From Candidatus Heimdallarchaeota archaeon (lineage in GTDB: Archaea; Asgardarchaeota; Heimdallarchaeia; Heimdallarchaeales; Heimdallarchaeaceae): a stretch of DNA of 23,416 nt. Made by a program: the position numbers and the translations under genes. Under the pieces are notes generated by a model. It was not told the DNA's origin. It made no database searches and was given only the letters and a program-made list of their open reading frames with translations. Shown piece by piece: positions 1 to 7,912 of this stretch; the first letter of the stretch is position 1, and each line of letters begins with the position of its first letter. Location: positions 1 to 23,416 of the forward strand of contig DAOVER010000045.1 in the NCBI GenBank assembly GCA_030668875.1. The letters are read 5' to 3'.

Positions 1-1041
1 AGTAAGGAAAATCTTCTTAGAACGTTTGGTAGGGTCGGCGATAGGAACAGCGGAGATAAGGGCTTTGGTGTAAGGGTGCATCATGTTTTCGAAGATTTCA
101 TCAGAATTACCGGATTCCATGATTTTGCCGAGATACATAACGTTGGTTTCGTCACAGAGAATCTTGACGAGGGAGAGATCATGAGCAATGAAAAGGTAAG
201 TAAGACCCATCTTGTTCTGGAGCTCGAGAATGAGCTGGATGATAGCTGCACGGACGGAAACATCAAGATTACTTACTGGTTCATCCATTACAATAAAGTC
301 TGGTTCAAGTGCTAGTGCTCTTGCTATACCTAATCTTTGTCTTTGTCCGCCTGAGAATTCGTGTGGGTATCTGTACGCATGATGTGGTGCTAATCCTACA
401 TCTTTTAGCAGTGACAACACTTTGTAACTTGCTTCATCTCCTGATGCTACTCCGTGTATTGCGAATGGTTCTATTATTATGTCATGTGCTGTTGCTCTTG
501 GATTCAGCGATGCATAAGGATCTTGAAATACTATTTGCAGGTGTCGTCTTATTTCTTTCATCTCTACTGATGTTAGACGATTTATGTCTATTCCTTTGAA
601 ATATACTGATCCTGCTGTTGGTTCTAGTAATCTTATTATTGTTTTTGCTGCTGTGCTTTTTCCACAACCTGATTCTCCTACTAGTCCAACTATTTTTCCT
701 TTACGAATACGTAAATCTATTCCATCAACTGCTTTCAAATGTGCAACTTTTGGTCTCTTATTGAATGGTGGGACATTTGGTAATAAAAAGTAAAGAATAA
801 CCACTCCAGCCATTAGAGATAATCCAACTGTTGTTGAGAAAGCAAATACTACAACTGAGGCTACGAATGCTAACATGAACCAAGTAGTTTCAAAAGGAAT
901 CGGAATGTTAAAGAATTTCTTGAGGTTGATAACTTCCAGAACTACATCTTCTTCCATTTCTTTTGTTCTGATTCTGCTAGATATTAGCCCTTTTTCTTCT
1001 TGTTGTCTTCCTATTTTTTCTATAAATGACTCTGAACTCAT
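1..1041 (-). CDS. dppF: Oligopeptide/dipeptide ABC transporter ATP-binding subunit (DppF/OppF type), 3' end runs off the window; carries an unusual ~34-aa hydrophobic insertion
   Basis: Not in the ORF track; translated by hand from ATG at 1041 (AGGTG upstream), open to base 1: MSSESFIEK...VLEVINLKKFF...HLKAVDGIDLRIRKGKIVGLVGESGCGKST (Walker A)...QIVFQDPYASLNPR...RYPHEFSGGQRQR (signature)...FIVMDEPVSNLD (Walker B)...FIAHDLS...HPYTKALISAVPIADP. Confidence 0.93.
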   Translation of the reverse strand, partial: MSSESFIEKIGRQQEEKGLISSRIRTKEMEEDVVLEVINLKKFFNIPIPFETTWFMLAFVASVVVFAFSTTVGLSLMAGVVILYFLLPNVPPFNKRPKVAHLKAVDGIDLRIRKGKIVGLVGESGCGKSTAAKTIIRLLEPTAGSVYFKGIDINRLTSVEMKEIRRHLQIVFQDPYASLNPRATAHDIIIEPFAIHGVASGDEASYKVLSLLKDVGLAPHHAYRYPHEFSGGQRQRLGIARALALEPDFIVMDEPVSNLDVSVRAAIIQLILELQNKMGLTYLFIAHDLSLVKILCDETNVMYLGKIMESGNSDEIFENMMHPYTKALISAVPIADPTKRSKKIFLT

Positions 1042-1053
1042 TTTCTTTTACAC

Positions 1054-2115
1054 CTAACCTGCTATAGCCTTTTTAGGCATTGTTGAGATTTCGCGTTTCT
1101 CACCATGTTGCTGCATCCAAGCTTTACCTTCTTCAGTATAAATGTGGCATCTTACATCATGGCCTGGTTCAATTTCTACAATACTTGGAAGAATTCTCTC
1201 GCATAACCCTTTCATCCAATAATCACATCTGGGATGGAAACGACAGGCTGATGGAGGATTAATAAGGTTTGGAATAGCTCCACGAATAATCGTGAGATCC
1301 TCACGCGCTGCATCAGGTCGAGGGATAGCTCCTAGTAGACCTCTAGTATAGGGATGATAGGGTGATTTGAAGATGATCATAATATCTCCAACCTCACATA
1401 TGAAACCAGCGTACATAACAGCAACGCGGTCGCACATTTCAGCAATTACACCCATGTCATGGGTAATTAGAATAATACTCATATCGAACTCTTCACTAGT
1501 AGCCTTCAGAAGCTCAAGAATTTGGGCTTGAATGGTTACGTCAAGAGAAGTGGAAGGTTCATCTGCAATCAATAATTCAGGATTACAACTTAAGGCCATT
1601 GCGATCATTACACGTTGGCGCATACCTCCAGAGAATTCGAAGGGATAGTTATCAACACGCTCATCAGCACTTGGAATACCGACAAGGGACATTATTTTGA
1701 TAGATTTTTCACGGGCTTCTTTCTTCGAAACTTTTTGGTGAAGAATAATAGCTTCACTGATTTGGTCACCAACAGTAAAAACTGGATTAAGACTTGTCAT
1801 TGGGTCTTGGAAGATCATAGCTATTTGGTTACCACGAATCTTACGCATTTCAGCGTCACTGAGTTTGCGGAGATCTTGACCATGGAAAATAACTTCACCT
1901 TCAAGAATTTTTCCAGGTGGATCAGGTACAATTCCTAGTATAGAGAGGGCTGTTACGCTTTTCCCGCTTCCACTTTCCCCTACGAGTCCTAGTGTTTCTG
2001 ATTTATGGACAAGAAGGTCTATACTTTCTATTGCTTTTACTACTCCTTCTTCTGTAAAAAAGTATGTTTTTAACCCTTTTATTTCTAATAGAATATCTTC
2101 TGGCGGTCTACTCAT
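1054..2115 (-). CDS. dppD: Oligopeptide/dipeptide ABC transporter ATP-binding subunit (DppD/OppD type)
   Basis: GESGSGKS Walker [44 protein letters not shown] and C-terminal CRFHPRC...C...VRCH oligopeptide-ABC domain. ATG 2115 preferred to the GTG at 2124 used by the ORF track. Confidence 0.95.
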
Positions 2116-2168
2116 ACAATTCACTTACTGTAATTTTTACAAACGCTTAATTCTGTTGTTCGTTATAC

Positions 2169-2181
2169 TTTTATAAGTTTG
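2169..2181 (-). promoter_or_regulatory. Putative BRE-TATA promoter for dppD-dppF
   Basis: Minus strand CAAAC-TTATAAAA about 54-66 nt upstream of ATG 2115; the same AAAC-plus-TATA pattern recurs at several other gene starts. Confidence 0.5.
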
Positions 2182-2303
2182 TCTGTCTTGTTCTACTAAA
2201 AGAACTTCTGTTTCTACGGGTTAGTTACAGTTACATCTGTTGTACGCACTGATTATAAAACCTCTAAAAGAGAAAGAGAACGTAGTGAAGGGATTCATTT
2301 ACT

Positions 2304-3086
2304 CTATATTAATTCAAATAACTGCAATCTTTCTTGATATCTTTTCACTCTTTTACGTAGAGATGTTAAATCAACTTGAAAATCTCTTCGTAAATTCAAC
2401 AAAACAACTAATCTTGCAGCTGGAAGATTGATATATGATGGGAAAAATGCCACTATCATTGTTAAAGCGGATTCGCGTAGATTAGCATAGGGTATAATTT
2501 TTCTTTCTGACAATCCTAACACTTTATCTTTCAGCATCTCAAGTTTCTCGTGTCGAGTCTGCAGAAGTTCTTCTAGATATGTAAGCCACTGGAAGACCTT
2601 CGCTTGCAGTTCCTTAATGCAGCAGTCCAAGCTGATTTTAAGTAGATCAGCATTTTCGAGATTCTGTTTAGCCAGTGAGATTTTCTTCAAGAAGGATTCA
2701 TGATCTTTATCCATTCCCCAGAATCTAAGTATTCTTGAGATATTTTTCTCCTGAATCTCTTTGCCGTTCATGATAAGATTGTATTCTAAAACAGCTAAAA
2801 AGTAGGCGAGAATATCATCATTCTGAAAACCAGTGTCATTTTGATGACTTTCTAGTAACAGCGTGTATATATTTTGAAAATGTAGAACAGAGTCAGTGAA
2901 TACTCTTTCAGGAATATTTTTGCGAAGAAGCTTAGATGTTATCTCTAGAAATTGGAAAAAATGATTGTGGTTTTTTTGCCAGTCAAATTTTTCTAGTTTT
3001 CCATTAATTAAAAACTCAGGAATAGTAACCTTGTCTTTGGGACTTTCTAATGGTTTGAAGTCAAGCTTTTTGATGACAGTGGTCAT
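2304..3086 (-). CDS. Divergent TFB/TFIIB core-like protein (two cyclin-fold repeats plus C-terminal helix-turn-helix; no N-terminal zinc ribbon)
   Basis: NIPERVFTDSVLHFQNIY and DDILAYFLAVLEY...KEIQEKNISRIL resemble TFB repeat 1; C-terminal VDLTSLRKRVKRYQERL resembles the TFB VTEVTIRNRYKEL helix. Recognised by eye only. GTGAGG RBS upstream. Confidence 0.5.
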   Translation of the reverse strand: MTTVIKKLDFKPLESPKDKVTIPEFLINGKLEKFDWQKNHNHFFQFLEITSKLLRKNIPERVFTDSVLHFQNIYTLLLESHQNDTGFQNDDILAYFLAVLEYNLIMNGKEIQEKNISRILRFWGMDKDHESFLKKISLAKQNLENADLLKISLDCCIKELQAKVFQWLTYLEELLQTRHEKLEMLKDKVLGLSERKIIPYANLRESALTMIVAFFPSYINLPAARLVVLLNLRRDFQVDLTSLRKRVKRYQERLQLFELI

Positions 3087-3113
3087 TTTGCCTCACTAAT
3101 ATATAATTAAATT

Positions 3114-3121
3114 CATATAAA
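3114..3121 (-). promoter_or_regulatory. Putative TATA box for the TFB-like gene
   Basis: Minus strand TTTATATG 28-35 nt upstream of ATG 3086. Confidence 0.4.
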
Positions 3122-3321
3122 TACCCAATAAATTTTAAATGATAAGCCAGAAACTACTATCCTTTAGAAGAGAGTAACTCCCTCCCAAAATAGTCTACAC
3201 CCGATTTTGGAGTTACTAAATCTATGTTTAGTAAACGATAAGCTTCCACTAGCTTACCAATGAAATAATACTGTAAATACTTAATATACCTAAGAAAATA
3301 TAATTGCATTTTAATTGCATG

Positions 3322-3341
3322 AAAAATGAAAAAAGAAAAAA
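3322..3341 (-). terminator. Oligo-U terminator candidate after dppC
   Basis: Minus strand TTTTTTCTTTTTTCATTTTT starts about 15 nt after the dppC stop; U tracts are the usual archaeal intrinsic terminator. Confidence 0.5.
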
Positions 3342-3355
3342 GATTGAGAGAAGGA

Positions 3356-4420
3356 CTAATCCTTCAATCTTGGATCTAATGCATCTCTTAAAGAGTCACC
3401 GAGTAGGTTGAAACCTAAAACGGTAAAGAATATGAAGAGCGCAGGAAACATCGGCATCCATGGATAATCCAATAAATTGTTTTGCCATTTATTTAGATCA
3501 TCACCCCATGAAATTGCGTTAGGATCTCCGAAACCGAAGAAAGCTAAAGCTGCGAATGTAAAGATTACATTAGCTATACCCAACGTGATAATAATAATCA
3601 GTGGGGCTAATGAGTTAGGCAGAATGTGCCTAAAGATAATCCTCATATCCGAAGCGCCTAACGCGCGTTCTGCTTCTACGAAATCTTGTTCTTTTAGAGA
3701 GAAGAAATTGGACCTTATAATCAATGCAGTTCCTCCCCACCCGATAAGTGAGAAGAAAACTATTACTACAGCGTATTTTCCACCCGGTATTTTCACATCT
3801 TCAAACAGTACGATGATAAAAATCATCAAGATAAATCCAGGCATTGAGTATAGTATCTCTATTACTCTTTGCAAGACGTTATCTACAATACCACCATAGA
3901 AACCTGCGATCGAACCTAGAACTGTACCTATAATTACTGTGGTCATCTGTCCGATGAACCCTAGTGCTAAAGATACTGATGCTCCAAAGAATACTCTGGA
4001 AAGCATGTCTTGTCCAAGACGATCAGTTCCAAATGGGTGTTCCCATGAAGGTGGCAAGGTTGATTGATCTGCGAATTGATACCTAGGATGTTGGAAAAGC
4101 ACAATCGGATTTGATGTATCCATACCAGGGTACCACAATTCTATATACAGGTTGTTTAAACTTGCTGGATTGTTAGGGTCTCCAAGGAGTAAATTAGCAT
4201 TTGTCAACCAATCATCTACCAGAAGCAGTATCCAAGAAACTAGGGCCATCATAATTAGGAAGAGTACAATATACAATCCTAACATACCCATTTTATCTTT
4301 CTTAATACGTCTCCAGACAATTGACCATTGACCGGCTCCTTTCATTGTTTCGATTTCTCTTAACGTTTTTTCGTCAAGGAGAAATTCTTCTTTTTCTACT
4401 TTTTTATCTATAGTTGCCAT
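3356..4420 (-). CDS. dppC: Oligopeptide/dipeptide ABC transporter permease (DppC/OppC)
   Basis: HPFGTDRLGQDMLSRV, EAA loop FVEAERALGAS..RIIFRHILPN, C-terminal FNLLGDSLRDALDPR. Confidence 0.95.
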   Translation of the reverse strand: MATIDKKVEKEEFLLDEKTLREIETMKGAGQWSIVWRRIKKDKMGMLGLYIVLFLIMMALVSWILLLVDDWLTNANLLLGDPNNPASLNNLYIELWYPGMDTSNPIVLFQHPRYQFADQSTLPPSWEHPFGTDRLGQDMLSRVFFGASVSLALGFIGQMTTVIIGTVLGSIAGFYGGIVDNVLQRVIEILYSMPGFILMIFIIVLFEDVKIPGGKYAVVIVFFSLIGWGGTALIIRSNFFSLKEQDFVEAERALGASDMRIIFRHILPNSLAPLIIIITLGIANVIFTFAALAFFGFGDPNAISWGDDLNKWQNNLLDYPWMPMFPALFIFFTVLGFNLLGDSLRDALDPRLKD

Positions 4421-4431
4421 TTTTTACCCCT

Positions 4432-5439
4432 CTAGTATTTAATCCTTGGATCGATAAACACGTACGTGATGTCCGTGAGTAGACGCGCTATTAAGAACAA
4501 CAATGGAAAGATTGTGTTCGTTGCCATCATTAAAGGATAATCCCTGAACAGAGCACCTTCAAGGAAGAGTGTTCCTAATCCTGGCCATCCAAATACTGAT
4601 TCAACCATAACACTTCCACTTAACAATCCTGGTAATGAGTTACCTATGATTGTTACTATTGGTAGCAGTCCGTTTCTGAACGCGTGCTTGTAAACTACCG
4701 CACGATTATCTAATCCTTTAGCTTTTGCTGTTGTTACATAATCTTGCCTCAAAATTTCGAGCAATTGTGATCTTACTAATCTGGCCATAAACACTAGTCC
4801 ACCTAGCGTCAACGCCAGCGTCGGCAGTATCAGATATTTATAGAAATTCGGGTTAAGAAATAGTGGTGTCTTAAATGCATCTTTGTTCGCTACTCCAGTA
4901 AAGTTGAATAACGAGTAGGATAGCAACATGAGTAGTTTTGCTAGCCAGAAAAGAGGCATAGAGTAACCTAATAACATAGCAACAGTTAACGATCGATCCC
5001 AAATTGAGTTTTGCCTGGTTGCTGAAACAACACCAATTGCTGTAGCCAGCAATAGTGAGAAAATGAACGATAAAATATTTAGTGTAATTGTATACACTGC
5101 ACGTTCACTTATCAGTTGCGAGATAGGTATACCTAACCCAGCTTGCGTGTTATACCAAGATCGACCCAAATCGAAATGTAATAAATCATTTACGAAATCA
5201 ACATATCTTTCAAACCATGGAACTGTGTACATTTCATTGTTCAGCAGTCCCATTTGTATTGCTTCTTTGTTATATGCCGTGTTGTAACACTCTGGTGTCT
5301 CACACTTTAATAATCCCAACCTTACGAGAACTGGGTCTCCAGGGCTGACATTAATCAATGTAAAGTTCAATAGAGTGATACCTAACATAACAGGAACGAT
5401 ATAAATGACTCGTTTTACTATATATCCTTTTAAAGACAT
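4432..5439 (-). CDS. dppB: Oligopeptide/dipeptide ABC transporter permease (DppB/OppB)
   Basis: YIVKRV...SPGDPV, FDLGRS, EAA loop DYVTTAKAKGL...YKHAFRN, VESVFGWPGLG, C-terminal DPRIKY; GGAG RBS. Confidence 0.95.
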   Translation of the reverse strand: MSLKGYIVKRVIYIVPVMLGITLLNFTLINVSPGDPVLVRLGLLKCETPECYNTAYNKEAIQMGLLNNEMYTVPWFERYVDFVNDLLHFDLGRSWYNTQAGLGIPISQLISERAVYTITLNILSFIFSLLLATAIGVVSATRQNSIWDRSLTVAMLLGYSMPLFWLAKLLMLLSYSLFNFTGVANKDAFKTPLFLNPNFYKYLILPTLALTLGGLVFMARLVRSQLLEILRQDYVTTAKAKGLDNRAVVYKHAFRNGLLPIVTIIGNSLPGLLSGSVMVESVFGWPGLGTLFLEGALFRDYPLMMATNTIFPLLFLIARLLTDITYVFIDPRIKY

Positions 5440-5645: not shown

Positions 5646-6359
5646 TTAAATACCTTCTTTTATCATCTCTTCTATCTTCATATCAAAAGTAATTTTCCCA
5701 TCATGCATGTGAAGAGTTCTATTCGCACGTTTGGCAGCAGAAAGATCATGTGTTACTAGCAAAATTGATGTTCCTCTTTCTTTGTTCAAGTTATCAAATA
5801 ATTCTAGCACTGTTCTTCCTGTCTTTGAATCTAAATTTCCCGTCGGTTCATCTGCAAGTAGTATAATTGGGTCATTTACTAGTGCTCTCATAATTGATAC
5901 TCTTTGTCTCTCCCCAGAGCTTAATTCTTCTGGAAATTTGTTTCTAAGATATCCTAATTTGAAGTCTTGAATTAATCCCTCGACTGCATGTTTTCTTTGC
6001 TCATATGGTACTGAGTCAAAGATTAAAGGTAGTTCGATATTTTCGTAAGCTGTCAATCCCTCGATCAGGTTAAAGAACTGAAACACGAATCCTAGATTCT
6101 TCCTTCTGAAATTGGTTAGTTGCTCTTTTGTAAAATGGCTTAAATCTGTTCCATTGATTATTATTCTTCCTTCTGAAGGTATTTCTAATGTTCCTACTAA
6201 ATTCAACAATGTTGTTTTACCTGAACCTGATGGACCAACGATGGACGAAAATTCCCCCCTCTCAAAGTTTATGGATACATTATCAACTGCCCTCACTTCA
6301 CTGTTTCCTACAACGAAGTTTTTCGAAAGGTTTTCACAGATAACGATTTGCTCTTTCAT
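5646..6359 (-). CDS. ABC transporter ATP-binding protein, LolD/MacB/FtsE-like family; no cognate permease adjacent
   Basis: GPSGSGKTT, LGFVFQFFNLI, LSSGERQRV, ILLADEPTGNLD, VTHD. ATG 6359 (MKEQIV) preferred to the ORF-track start at 6380. Confidence 0.92.
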   Translation of the reverse strand: MKEQIVICENLSKNFVVGNSEVRAVDNVSINFERGEFSSIVGPSGSGKTTLLNLVGTLEIPSEGRIIINGTDLSHFTKEQLTNFRRKNLGFVFQFFNLIEGLTAYENIELPLIFDSVPYEQRKHAVEGLIQDFKLGYLRNKFPEELSSGERQRVSIMRALVNDPIILLADEPTGNLDSKTGRTVLELFDNLNKERGTSILLVTHDLSAAKRANRTLHMHDGKITFDMKIEEMIKEGI

Positions 6360-6424
6360 CTGTATGGTACCACAAAACAAGCACTAATAAAGTTGTTCAA
6401 ATGATTATTTCTTCTAGTTCTATT

Positions 6425-7912
6425 CTAGTTAATAGAAGGTTTCAGAAATTTAGTTTCTCCAGTTGGTTCAAAATAGAGCAACTTTCCTTCCATATCCTGA
6501 TTAGCTTGTTTTGCAGAAAAAGTAACAATATTTACCGGTACATAAATAACGTGAACAATTATTGCCTCTAGAACAGATGTAATTCTCGCTGTTTCATCTA
6601 GAACCGTCTCAATATTCTGATTCTGAATTGCTTCCTCTAATATTCTGATTATTGAATTCTCAAAGTAAAAGAGCAATTTCTCGTTGATTTCCGACATACC
6701 ATCGGCTGAAAATATTTCTATCCATTTTTCAAGAGCATCTTCTTGCTTTTTGGTTTCTTTAATTGTGTCTTGAATCGTTTTCTTATTTGCTTGGAATCTT
6801 CTTAATTGATTGATCAAATCTTCCTTTTGTTCCCTTGTTGTCTTTTTACCTCTTCTTTCATCTATTTGTAGTCTCTTTGTTCTTGCGTCGATTTTTTTTT
6901 GCGTTCGTTTTAGTTTGATGAAGTTAACTTGAGCATCTCTCCCCTTTGTAGTATATTCCACTTGTTTTGCCTTCAATTGGGGTCTAACCTCTTGAAGTGC
7001 CTTTTCAAGATCAGTTTCATTCCAAATTTGTTTATCATTCTCAATCATTTTTTTAAGTCCATTTAGAAATAATATCAGTTCTGAATGATAGCTGTGTGTT
7101 TTGTTCATTTTATCCTTATAATCTGTGATATAGTCATGTATCACTTTTTCATCAAATTCGATGATTTTGGATTTTTTGACTTCCTCTTTGCTTAACCTTT
7201 CTTGAGAATCTCTATTCAGTAATTTAACTAGATTCATCTGGATTTTGTTTATCGCTTGAATCAGATTCTCTCTTTCTTTGGTGTCTATTTCTTTGAATTC
7301 TTTTTTTCCCACAGCTAGCATTTTTAATTGCTTCTTCTCCCCTGAGAGGAATGTGGGTAGTGAAATTTCATCTAAATTCAAAGGAAGTACTGCTTTGAAA
7401 CTATTATCGAGTTTGCAAAGTGCAAAGGGATAACTCATCGTTTCTTGATGAGTTATTTTTATTTTTTCTAGTGACTGTAATCTCCCCTTAATTCTTTTAA
7501 TTATGTCTTCATTATCTACTTCTTTGGTTAAATAGTAAAAATCATTTATTGTAATGCTTGTTTTCTCAAACAGCTGTGAAAGTGCATTCTCTATTTTGAT
7601 TATATCACCCAATCGTTTTTCTTTTGATACTTCAACTGATTTTTTCTGAACAACATCTATTTGTTTTTCTAGATCTGTTGCTTGTTTCTCAACGTCATCT
7701 ATCTCTTGTTCACTTTCACTCTTCAGCTGTTCAACTTCAACTGATTCAATACTCTCCGTATCTTCTTTTGTCTCTTGTTTTACTTCTTCTACCTCTACAT
7801 TGTCGTTTTCGAGAGTAATATCTGGTGTTTGATCCACTATTTCCTCGATTTTGTTTGTCAGAGCTATAAATTCAGAAAATGTTTGAGAATCATCCTTAGG
7901 CTTTTCACTCAT
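6425..7912 (-). CDS. Hypothetical 495-aa coiled-coil protein (acidic N-terminus, basic coiled coil, beta-rich C-terminus)
   Basis: Long uninterrupted ORF, E/K/Q-rich heptad-like sequence, TATA box upstream. No family recognised. Confidence 0.85.
   Translation of the reverse strand: MSEKPKDDSQTFSEFIALTNKIEEIVDQTPDITLENDNVEVEEVKQETKEDTESIESVEVEQLKSESEQEIDDVEKQATDLEKQIDVVQKKSVEVSKEKRLGDIIKIENALSQLFEKTSITINDFYYLTKEVDNEDIIKRIKGRLQSLEKIKITHQETMSYPFALCKLDNSFKAVLPLNLDEISLPTFLSGEKKQLKMLAVGKKEFKEIDTKERENLIQAINKIQMNLVKLLNRDSQERLSKEEVKKSKIIEFDEKVIHDYITDYKDKMNKTHSYHSELILFLNGLKKMIENDKQIWNETDLEKALQEVRPQLKAKQVEYTTKGRDAQVNFIKLKRTQKKIDARTKRLQIDERRGKKTTREQKEDLINQLRRFQANKKTIQDTIKETKKQEDALEKWIEIFSADGMSEINEKLLFYFENSIIRILEEAIQNQNIETVLDETARITSVLEAIIVHVIYVPVNIVTFSAKQANQDMEGKLLYFEPTGETKFLKPSIN

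What the first reader, a model, noticed from the sequence alone, without database searches (positions are those of the whole stretch)
781..882. Membrane hairpin inserted inside the nucleotide-binding domain of DppF
Seen: between the first NBD strand (VLEVINLKKFF) and the KAVDG strand before Walker A, the protein reads NIPIPFETT-WFMLAFVASVVVFAFSTTVGLSLMAGVVILYFLL-PNVPPFNKRPKVAHL. The central 34 residues contain no charged residue. Established: in DppF/OppF ATPases this loop is normally short and polar, and the NBD is a soluble subunit. Inference: a two-helix or re-entrant hairpin tethers this ATPase directly to the membrane, which would be an atypical importer architecture. The partner DppD in this window has no such insert. 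The gene is absent from the ORF track, so it is easy to miss.
Basis: partly seen in the sequence, partly recalled or inferred. Interest (0 to 1): 0.72.

Follow-up and report, generated by a model that had tools for sequence, protein, structure and literature searches.

The report
Membrane hairpin inside peptide-importer ATPase
In one family of Heimdall-group Asgard archaea, the normally soluble ATP-burning subunit of a peptide-type ABC importer carries a conserved 44-residue insertion predicted to form two membrane helices, a built-in membrane anchor I found in no searched paper or solved structure.

Summary
Window 781-882 (minus strand) encodes 34 uncharged residues inside an OppF/DppF-like ABC ATPase. 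They lie right after strand beta1 and the A-loop aromatic residue, and before the KAVDG strand.

The beta1-beta2 connection is 58 residues here. In 67 non-family relatives it is 8-19 residues (mode 14), so the net insert is 44 residues.

- **Distribution:** the insert has the same length in 44 distinct sequences. It is present in 26 of 29 genomes of one family (Heimdallarchaeaceae, five genera) and was found nowhere else in 370 genomes of the phylum or among 1.84 billion protein representatives.
- **Selection:** purifying (dN/dS 0.13, against 0.04 for the ATPase core).
- **Structure:** AlphaFold2 predicts two helices (53-68 and 70-89, pLDDT 83-95) projecting from a normal OppF fold.
- **Assembly:** independent DNA contigs and one RNA-library contig bridge the region, so it is not a misassembly.

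My best reading is a membrane-inserted helical hairpin that anchors the ATPase beside the permeases.

This scan found the same hairpin before on other DNA (e1-548466 and others). I also found Loki-group OppF genes with N-terminal membrane helices, so anchoring of this ATPase recurs in Asgard archaea.

Verdict: new variant of a known kind. Membrane insertion itself remains untested.

The parts
1..1041 (-). OppF/DppF-like ABC ATPase gene, cut by the contig end (residues 1-347 of about 406)
   Evidence: PF00005 E 2.4e-32 and PF08352. Orthologues are 401-409 aa. The AF2 model matches E. coli OppF 8z21_D with Z 41.6.
952..1041 (-). N-terminal extension of about 30 residues, conserved in the family, with a predicted helix at 6-16
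   Evidence: Alignments A1/A3; AF2 helix H6-16 at low confidence.
910..945 (-). Strand beta1 and A-loop aromatic residues (VVLEVINLKKFF, residues 33-44)
   Evidence: F44 is invariant. AF2 strand E33-47 has pLDDT 93. Position is analogous to Wzt Tyr11 (PMC6379404).
736..909 (-). The 58-residue beta1-beta2 connection (residues 45-102); relatives have 8-19 residues here, so the net insert is 44
   Evidence: Loop-length count. 44 distinct inserts, all 58 aa, 24 invariant positions. dN/dS 0.125.
838..885 (-). Hydrophobic helix 1 (residues 53-68, TTWFMLAFVASVVVFAF)
   Evidence: AF2 helix H53-68, pLDDT 83-95. KD15 2.5. T52, T53, W54, F55, A58, F59, F66 and A67 are invariant; F68 is nearly invariant (43 of 44).
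826..837 (-). Tight turn (residues 69-72). It is the most variable part, always has a polar residue, and is charged in 25 of 44 orthologues.
   Evidence: Entropy 1.9-3.0 bits. AF2 breaks the helix at residue 69 only.
775..825 (-). Hydrophobic helix 2 (residues 73-89, GLSLMAGVVILYFLLPN)
   Evidence: AF2 helix H70-89. KD15 2.4. Conservation shows 100-degree periodicity.
748..780 (-). Proline-rich basic return linker (residues 88-98, PNVPPFNKRPK); net charge of the C-flank about +3
   Evidence: P88, P91, P92, F93, K95, R96 and P97 are invariant. FNKRPKVA aligns with F-KRKVA of the ancestral loop.
721..735 (-). Strand beta2 motif KAVDG (residues 103-107)
   Evidence: Invariant. AF2 strand E99-113.
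652..678 (-). Walker A GESGCGKST (residues 122-130)
   Evidence: Invariant columns.
1054..2124 (-). OppD/DppD-like partner ATPase, with no insert
   Evidence: Pfam, NCBIfam OppD subfamily, alignment A1.
3356..4420 (-). OppC/DppC-like permease. By the E. coli pairing, this is the expected partner of the F-type ATPase.
   Evidence: PF00528 and PF12911. DppC pairs with DppF in E. coli (PMC12136057).
4432..5439 (-). OppB/DppB-like permease
   Evidence: PF00528; NCBIfam.

Best explanation
The gene encodes the F-type ATPase of a PepT-family (Opp/Dpp-like) type I ABC importer. In it, 44 residues have been added to the connection between strands beta1 and beta2, directly after the A-loop aromatic residue that stacks on the adenine of ATP.

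The added residues form a tight helix-turn-helix of two short hydrophobic helices (about 16 and 17-20 residues). I read this as a hairpin inserted in the cytoplasmic membrane with both ends inside. It would permanently anchor the ATPase next to the permeases DppC/DppB, and probably pack against them as two extra membrane helices.

The polar, variable tip most likely reaches the outer head-group region. That would make the hairpin a full but thin span rather than a half-membrane wedge.

Because the hairpin hangs on the strand pair that carries the A-loop, ATP binding at this site should move it relative to the permeases.

**Shown:** the sequence, its site, its conservation and selection, its restriction to one family, the predicted helical hairpin outside a normal OppF fold, and its presence in independent assemblies.

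**Inferred:** membrane insertion, topology, contact with the permeases, and any regulatory effect.
For: - **Hydrophobicity.** 34-43 uncharged residues; KD19 up to 2.15; Wimley-White octanol free energy down to -10 kcal/mol per 19 residues.
- **Charge distribution.** The C-flank carries net +3, and KK precedes the insert, as expected for cytoplasmic flanks.
- **Structure.** AF2 on a deep alignment gives pLDDT 87.7 and pTM 0.82, with beta1 at 33-47, helices at 53-68 and 70-89 (pLDDT 83-95), and beta2 at 99-113.
- **Fold.** The rest of the model is OppF: 8z21_D Z 41.6, 325 residues aligned, 44 unaligned.
- **Length conservation.** No length change in 44 distinct inserts; 24 of 58 positions are invariant.
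- **Selection.** dN/dS is 0.125 for the insert and 0.04 for the core.
- **Distribution.** 26 of 29 genomes of the family in five genera; 0 of 370 elsewhere in the phylum with this query. Orthologues are at least 78% identical, while the next-best OppF is 55% identical with a normal 14-residue loop.
- **Possible docking site.** Dpp permeases leave a V-shaped lateral opening (PMC10954201).
- **Convergence.** OppF-type genes of a Loki-group family carry 3 to 7 N-terminal membrane-like segments before a normal beta1 and loop.
Against: - No experiment and no dedicated topology predictor was available.
- I could not read coordinates or model the four-subunit complex, so the direction in which the hairpin points is not shown.
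- The helices are short (15-17 strictly hydrophobic residues), which also fits a re-entrant wedge.
- The AF2 return linker (residues 91-100) has only pLDDT 66.
- dS is near saturation (about 1.4), so the dN/dS values are rough.
- The RNA-library contig is from a relative at about 91% identity and may be DNA carry-over.
Confidence: 0.62

Rival explanations
1. The hairpin is a re-entrant (monotopic) wedge. It dips into the cytoplasmic leaflet, or into the lateral cleft between the two permeases, without crossing the membrane.
For: The strictly hydrophobic runs are only 15 and 17 residues, and the aromatic belts W54/F55 and Y84/F85 are 12-14 residues from F66/F68 and G73. AF2 gives a one-residue turn. 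A lateral opening exists in Dpp translocators (PMC10954201).
Against: The tip (69-72) is the most variable part, always polar, and charged in 25 of 44 orthologues. That is costly in the middle of a bilayer unless the tip faces protein or water. AF2 helix 2 is 20 residues, a normal spanning length.
Confidence: 0.22
2. The hydrophobic hairpin is not in lipid at all. It is buried in a cytoplasmic protein-protein interface, for example with the conserved downstream proteins or another copy of the ATPase.
For: 24 invariant positions and a conserved face on helix 2 suggest specific packing rather than a generic anchor. Two conserved genes of unknown function follow the operon in L009 and L011.
Against: 34-43 residues with no charge and KD above 2 match the membrane segments of this genome's own fused exporters. 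The flank charges follow the positive-inside pattern. The site faces the membrane in Wzt.
Confidence: 0.08
3. The hairpin is a tolerated passenger. It anchors the ATPase but changes nothing in transport or regulation.
For: CFTR carries a 32-residue insertion between the same two strands that is dispensable for gating (PMC4101494). The other Opp system of the same genome works without an insert.
Against: No length change in five genera, dN/dS of 0.13, and invariant motifs at both helix ends argue for a constrained role. So does the absence of any orthologue that has lost the insert.
Confidence: 0.07
4. The insert is an artefact: a misassembly, a fused pair of ORFs, or an untranslated intervening sequence.
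For: The gene lies at a contig end. One public annotation (P0041) starts at Met56, inside helix 1.
Against: Contigs from three samples and one RNA library bridge the region with no indel in the insert. Two closed genomes carry it. Beta1 and the A-loop lie upstream in the same frame and are needed for the fold. Selection acts at the protein level.
Confidence: 0.01

Closest known systems
E. coli OppF and DppF of OppBCDF/DppBCDF (PDB 8Z21, 8Z1V; PMC12136057)
   Same: Same fold (Z 40-42, 43-46% identity). All ATPase motifs are shared, as is the C-terminal oligo_HPY domain with four Cys at the spacing of the [4Fe-4S] site in orthologues. The operon also has B, C and D subunits.
   Different: The solved proteins are soluble peripheral subunits with a 14-residue polar beta1-beta2 loop. 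Here 44 hydrophobic residues and a 30-residue N-terminal extension are added. Scores fall below NCBIfam's DppF/OppF equivalog cut-offs. No binding-protein gene is adjacent.
Gate helix of Wzt/TagH-type exporter ATPases (PMC6379404)
   Same: [quoted passage not shown]
   Different: The gate helix is one short interfacial helix in type V exporters, and it is thought to bind the lipid-linked substrate. Here there is a 34-residue fully apolar two-helix hairpin in a type I importer ATPase, with no sequence similarity.
Regulatory insertion of CFTR NBD1 (PMC4101494)
   Same: [quoted passage not shown] This shows that the site tolerates insertions.
   Different: The CFTR insertion is polar, disordered and cytosolic. 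This one is apolar, predicted helical with high confidence, and constrained in length.
LptC transmembrane helix in LptB2FGC
   Same: An extra membrane helix that sits at the seam between the two membrane subunits of an ABC transporter and modulates ATPase activity. This is the functional model for the novel reading.
   Different: LptC is a separate protein, not part of the ATPase, and it belongs to an exporter-type machine.
Loki-group OppF-type ATPases with N-terminal membrane segments (L073, L074, L076-L079)
   Same: The same ATPase type in the same phylum is also given its own membrane-like segments.
   Different: The segments (3 to 7) precede beta1, and the beta1-beta2 loop is the normal 14 residues. 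This is an unrelated sequence and a different architecture.

Membership tests
ABC ATPase domain (PF00005) | Walker A, Q-loop, signature SGGQ, Walker B with catalytic Glu, D-loop, H-loop | tested here: met
   GESGCGKST 122-130, FQDP 172-175, FSGGQRQR 229-236, FIVMDEP 249-255, SNLD, H287. PF00005 E 2.4e-32.
PepT-family OppF/DppF-type ATPase | C-terminal oligo_HPY domain (PF08352) with four Cys for a [4Fe-4S] cluster | tested here: met
   PF08352 starts at residue 308 in the window copy, which is cut by the contig end. It is complete in orthologues. C360, C366, C373 and C391 are conserved, with spacing like E. coli DppF C293/299/306/323. Cluster binding itself was not tested.
PepT-family OppF/DppF-type ATPase | Fold matches solved OppF/DppF better than other ABC ATPases | tested here: met
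   Z 41.6-38.2 for 8z21_D and 8z1v-y_D, against 32 or less for MetN and others.
DppF or OppF equivalogs (NCBIfam NF043071, NF011659) | Score above the curated cut-off | tested here: not met
   325 bits against a cut-off of 660, and 351 against 540. The subfamily NF008453 scores 364.5 against 408. The substrate should therefore not be named.
Opp/Dpp-type importer operon | Two permeases plus D- and F-type ATPases in one cluster | tested here: met
   Genes at 4432-5439, 3356-4420, 1054-2124 and 1-1041, all on the minus strand. The same order is seen in L009 and L011.
Opp/Dpp-type importer operon | Adjacent cluster C substrate-binding protein (PF00496) | tested here: not met
   None next to the operon in the window (neighbours not all scanned) or in the flanks of L011. 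At least 17 PF00496 genes lie elsewhere in the genome.
Integral-membrane helical hairpin | Two apolar helices long enough to enter the bilayer, with basic cytoplasmic flanks | tested here: met
   KD15 2.4-2.5 for each half. AF2 helices of 16 and 20 residues. C-flank net +3.
Integral-membrane helical hairpin | Demonstrated membrane integration and topology | not testable with these tools
   Needs fractionation, accessibility labelling or a structure. No topology predictor or complex modelling was available.
Wzt-type gate helix | Extended beta1-beta2 connection directly after the A-loop aromatic residue | tested here: met
   The insert starts one residue after F44. Definition taken from PMC6379404.
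Wzt-type gate helix | Single short interfacial helix with a conserved Tyr in a basic pocket, in a type V exporter | tested here: not met
   Here there are two apolar helices of 16-20 residues in a type I importer ATPase.
CFTR-type regulatory insertion | Polar, disordered segment between the first two strands | tested here: not met
   Same site, but apolar and confidently helical.

The most novel reading that the evidence does not exclude
The hairpin is more than an anchor: it transmits nucleotide state. It is attached one residue after the A-loop aromatic residue of the F-site. In E. coli DppBCDF, the F-site is the one that binds ATP even at rest. The hairpin would therefore shift with ATP binding, as the Wzt gate helix does, and wedge into the lateral opening between DppB and DppC. 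There it would gate or tune transport on one side only, much as the LptC helix does in LptB2FGC. On this view, membrane-embedded ATPases of peptide-type importers are a recurrent and so far undescribed archaeal design, solved differently in the Heimdall and Loki groups and possibly in other archaea.
Probability: 0.2. Interest if true: 0.78.

Novelty: new variant of a known kind. Interest (0 to 1): 0.57.

Why it matters
ABC importer ATPases are textbook soluble, peripheral subunits. Their only link to the membrane is the groove that holds the permease's coupling helix. An ATPase with its own pair of membrane helices changes three things:

- how the complex must be made, because an otherwise cytosolic enzyme has to be inserted co-translationally;
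- how stable and how asymmetric the complex is;
- how directly ATP binding can act on the membrane part, since the attachment point is beside the A-loop.

The feature is strictly conserved in a family of Heimdall-group archaea, the closest known archaeal relatives of eukaryotes. It appears to have counterparts of different build in Loki-group OppF genes. This points to a general selective pressure to tether these ATPases in Asgard archaea.

It also has a practical consequence. Gene callers can start the protein inside the hairpin (P0041), which loses strand beta1.

Tried and rejected

Gene context came from the search for related loci and the genome search instead.
- The ESM Atlas held neither P0002 nor P0010 and could not read new sequences.

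**Computations that failed or were replaced**
- The first AF2 run, on 37 near-identical sequences, gave pLDDT 44 for the ATPase and was discarded, although it already showed the two helices.
- An HMM scan of the own genome for inserts failed, because local alignments simply start after the insert. I replaced it with a Walker A-anchored hydropathy scan.
- A phylum-wide search with the normal paralogue gave a list too long to show insert-bearing hits; 541 rows were unlisted.

**Leads that came to nothing**
- Three weak phylum matches to the hairpin (L041-L043, E about 5e-4 to 8e-4) are chance. L043 is an ORF with no plausible start and an unrelated sequence, and the other two contain stops.
- An intron or intein reading is rejected. 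The insert is under protein-level selection and is kept in an RNA-library contig.
- A donor for the hairpin was sought with a profile against 1.84 billion representatives. Only the family itself was hit.
- Five literature searches found no description of a membrane hairpin in an importer ATPase. The library lacks most subscription journals.
- Long mycoplasma OppF/OppD forms (NCBIfam models of 649 and 561 positions) were considered as a precedent but not examined.
I found N-terminal membrane segments there instead.

Full report
**1. What is in the window**

The window is the first 23,416 bases of contig C52 of a 3.2-Mb, 92% complete metagenome-assembled genome. Names attached to near-identical proteins and contigs place it in Candidatus Heimdallarchaeaceae, Asgard archaea.

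The minus strand carries a cluster of four transporter genes plus one ORF of unknown function:
- an OppB/DppB-like permease (4432-5439);
- an OppC/DppC-like permease (3356-4420);
- a 260-aa ORF with no Pfam match (2304-3086);
- an OppD/DppD-like ATPase (1054-2124);
- an OppF/DppF-like ATPase (1041 down to 1), starting 13 bases after the DppD stop.

The last gene runs off the contig end. It holds 347 of about 406 codons, which explains its absence from a track of closed ORFs.

**2.

Residues 54-87 (window 882-781) read WFMLAFVASVVVFAFSTTVGLSLMAGVVILYFLL, with no charged residue. The whole uncharged run is 43 residues. Mean Kyte-Doolittle hydropathy reaches 2.15 over 19 residues and 2.4-2.5 over 15 residues for each half.

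The segment lies between VVLEVINLKKFF (strand beta1 with the A-loop aromatic residue) and KAVDG (strand beta2), 19 residues before Walker A.

The connection from F44 to K103 is 58 residues. In 67 related F-type domains outside this family it is 8-19 residues, with a mode of 14. It is 16 residues in the genome's own paralogue on contig C38. The closest OppF of sister families has PLEAGYLFKRKVAD, 14 residues.

The end of the insert, PPFNKRPKVA, still aligns with F-KRKVA of that ancestral loop. The net gain is therefore 44 residues.

DppD in the window has no insert. Among 64 Walker A sites in this genome, eight have a membrane-like segment within 110 residues upstream. Seven of these are ordinary 580-660-residue fused exporters. 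The eighth is this stand-alone ATPase.

**3. It is real, conserved and restricted**

A search with the 81 residues around the insert found 32 proteins, all of this kind, mostly 401-409 aa.

Across 399 genomes of the phylum, the 77-residue query matched:
- 26 of 29 other genomes of the same family, in all five of its genera and including two closed single-contig genomes;
- none of 370 genomes of other families, apart from two chance-level hits that contain stops.

The three family members without a match are 72-82% complete.

Orthologues are 78-95% identical over the full length. The next-best OppF in any genome of the order is 55% identical and aligns only from residue 96-99 on. The family also keeps a normal OppF paralogue.

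A profile of the 58-residue connection, searched against 1.84 billion cluster representatives, hit only the family's own representative and one fragment of it. I therefore see no donor and no distant homologue.

Among 44 distinct inserts there is no length change at all, and 24 of 58 positions are invariant: I46, P47, P49, T52, T53, W54, F55, A58, F59, F66, A67, G73, F85, P88, P91, P92, F93, K95, R96, P97 and others.

Pairwise dN/dS (Nei-Gojobori, 26 genes) is:
- 0.125 for the connection;
- 0.19 for its apolar core;
- 0.04 for the ATPase core.

dS is about 1.4 and hence rough.

Logan contigs from three samples of one marine-sediment study cover 569-900 or more without a difference. One of these may be the source sample. 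A 1,622-base contig from a metatranscriptome library of another study spans 500-1398 at about 91% identity, with no indel in the insert. It may be DNA carry-over.

Misassembly, a fused ORF pair and a spliced intervening sequence are thus excluded.

**4. Structure**

With a shallow alignment, AF2 folded only the hairpin with any confidence. With 84 sequences, including diverse relatives, the model reached pLDDT 87.7 and pTM 0.82. Its elements in this region are:
- beta1 at 33-47;
- helix at 53-68;
- one-residue break at 69;
- helix at 70-89 (the four 10-residue blocks spanning 51-90 average 83, 95, 95 and 83);
- a less certain proline-rich return (91-100, pLDDT 66);
- beta2 at 99-113.

Beta1 and beta2 are each about five residues longer than needed for the core sheet. 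The hairpin therefore sits on a two-stranded stalk.

Structural alignment puts E. coli OppF first (8z21_D, Z 41.6, rmsd 1.9, 325 of 328 residues aligned over model residues 29-397), followed by DppF (Z 38-40). Exactly 44 model residues are left unmatched. The insert does not fold into the core.

**5. How it most likely works**

[quoted passage not shown] CFTR NBD1 carries a 32-residue insertion between the same two strands (PMC4101494), so the site is permissive.

*The flanks fit a cytoplasmic position.* KK precedes the insert and the return linker carries net +3. The tip (69-72) is the most variable part, always contains a polar residue, and is charged in 25 of 44 orthologues.

*Conservation pattern.* Conservation is concentrated at the two cytoplasmic entries (IPxPxETTWF and YFxLPxxPPFNKRPK) and around the turn (FAF....GL). 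The middle of each helix is generic I/V/L/A/G. Helix 2 shows a conserved face.

*My reading.* A thin but complete membrane hairpin with both ends inside, anchoring the ATPase and probably packing on the permeases. By the E. coli pairing, the partner would be DppC (PMC12136057). A V-shaped lateral opening between DppB and DppC exists in the M. tuberculosis complex (PMC10954201) and is a candidate docking site.

*What is inferred.* Insertion, topology and contacts are all inferred. I could not model the complex or read coordinates. A re-entrant wedge is the main rival, because the strictly apolar runs are only 15 and 17 residues.

**6. Comparison with the known**

The protein is a PepT-family F-type ATPase by motifs, by the oligo_HPY domain, by the four-cysteine [4Fe-4S] pattern in full-length orthologues, by fold and by operon. 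It scores below NCBIfam's cut-offs for DppF, OppF and the dipeptide subfamily.

No binding-protein gene is adjacent, although the genome has at least 17 elsewhere. "DppF" is therefore a convenience name and the substrate is open.

No solved Opp/Dpp ATPase has the insert. The five literature searches that bore on this found no description of it.

**7. Earlier notes of this scan, and a test of my own**

The scan has met this same hairpin on other DNA at least eight times. One case was followed up and reached the same conclusion (e1-548466).

Other notes claim membrane helices inside PepT-family ATPases of Marine Group II archaea, Thermoplasmata and a Loki group, and inside an RND-fused ABC domain. 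I did not test those claims.

I did test Asgard relatives myself. In 61 sampled genomes of a Loki-group family, 19 OppF-type matches were listed, and seven of them had unusually long open frames. Of these seven:
- three carry three membrane-like segments upstream of the ATPase domain;
- three carry five to seven such segments;
- one looks like non-coding read-through.

In the six with membrane-like segments, these lie upstream of a normal beta1 and a normal 14-residue loop, and the pattern is conserved between genomes.

Giving OppF its own membrane segments has therefore happened more than once in this phylum, by different routes. That supports a functional anchor, and it makes the Heimdall hairpin one variant of a wider, apparently undescribed theme.

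**8. Verdict**

It is a new variant of a known kind: an OppF-type ATPase with an internal two-helix membrane hairpin at the A-loop. It is family-specific and under purifying selection.

It is of real interest to ABC-transporter structural biology, but it has already been seen by this scan, and its membrane topology and functional effect are untested.

Noticed in passing
L073, L074, L076 (3 segments); L077, L078, L079 (5-7 segments); Loki-group family f20: OppF-type ATPase genes with N-terminal membrane-like segments in frame before a normal beta1 strand and a normal 14-residue loop. The pattern is conserved between genomes. This is a different way of anchoring the same ATPase.
   Followed up: partly
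window 2304-3086 (-): A 260-aa ORF sits between dppC and dppD and has no Pfam match. A 257-aa counterpart is present in L009 (5872-6645), but L011 has only a 356-base gap there. It is therefore a lineage-specific addition to the operon.
   Followed up: partly
P0009 (417 aa, from a 1,615-base Logan contig): The N-terminus, hairpin and Walker A of the F-type protein are joined, right after GESGCGKST, to an OppD-like body. This is either an assembly chimera at the most conserved stretch or a real recombinant.
   Followed up: no
P0041 (351 aa, named by NCBI): This public annotation starts at Met56, in the middle of helix 1. It thereby loses strand beta1, the A-loop and the N-terminal extension, so gene callers can mis-start this family.
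   Followed up: yes
window 1-5439 and L009, L011 flanks; genome-wide PF00496 hits: No substrate-binding protein gene lies next to this translocator, while at least 17 SBP_bac_5 genes are scattered over other contigs of the genome.
   Followed up: partly
L011 9274-10792 and L009 9363-10880: Two conserved genes follow the ATPase gene: one of 250 aa with no Pfam match, and one of 254-258 aa with only a sub-threshold Pfam match to the intermediate-filament family (PF00038, 22 bits against a cut-off of 40) and so possibly coiled-coil. A glutamate dehydrogenase gene comes next. The window ends before them.
   Followed up: no
window 952-1041 (-): A 30-residue N-terminal extension (SFIxKL..KQ..KG....RIRTKEM) is conserved with the hairpin across the family. 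AF2 predicts a helix at 6-16 with low confidence. Its role is unknown.
   Followed up: no
window 1193-1198 (dppD), run X21: The RNA-library contig of a related strain has one base put in at 1193 and one left out at 1198. This shifts the dppD frame over five bases only.
   Followed up: no
window 5646-7912 (-): Upstream of the operon lie a 244-aa ABC ATPase and a 495-aa ORF. The ATPase-plus-ORF pair recurs in L009 and L011. The L011 counterpart of the 495-aa ORF has no Pfam match.
   Followed up: no
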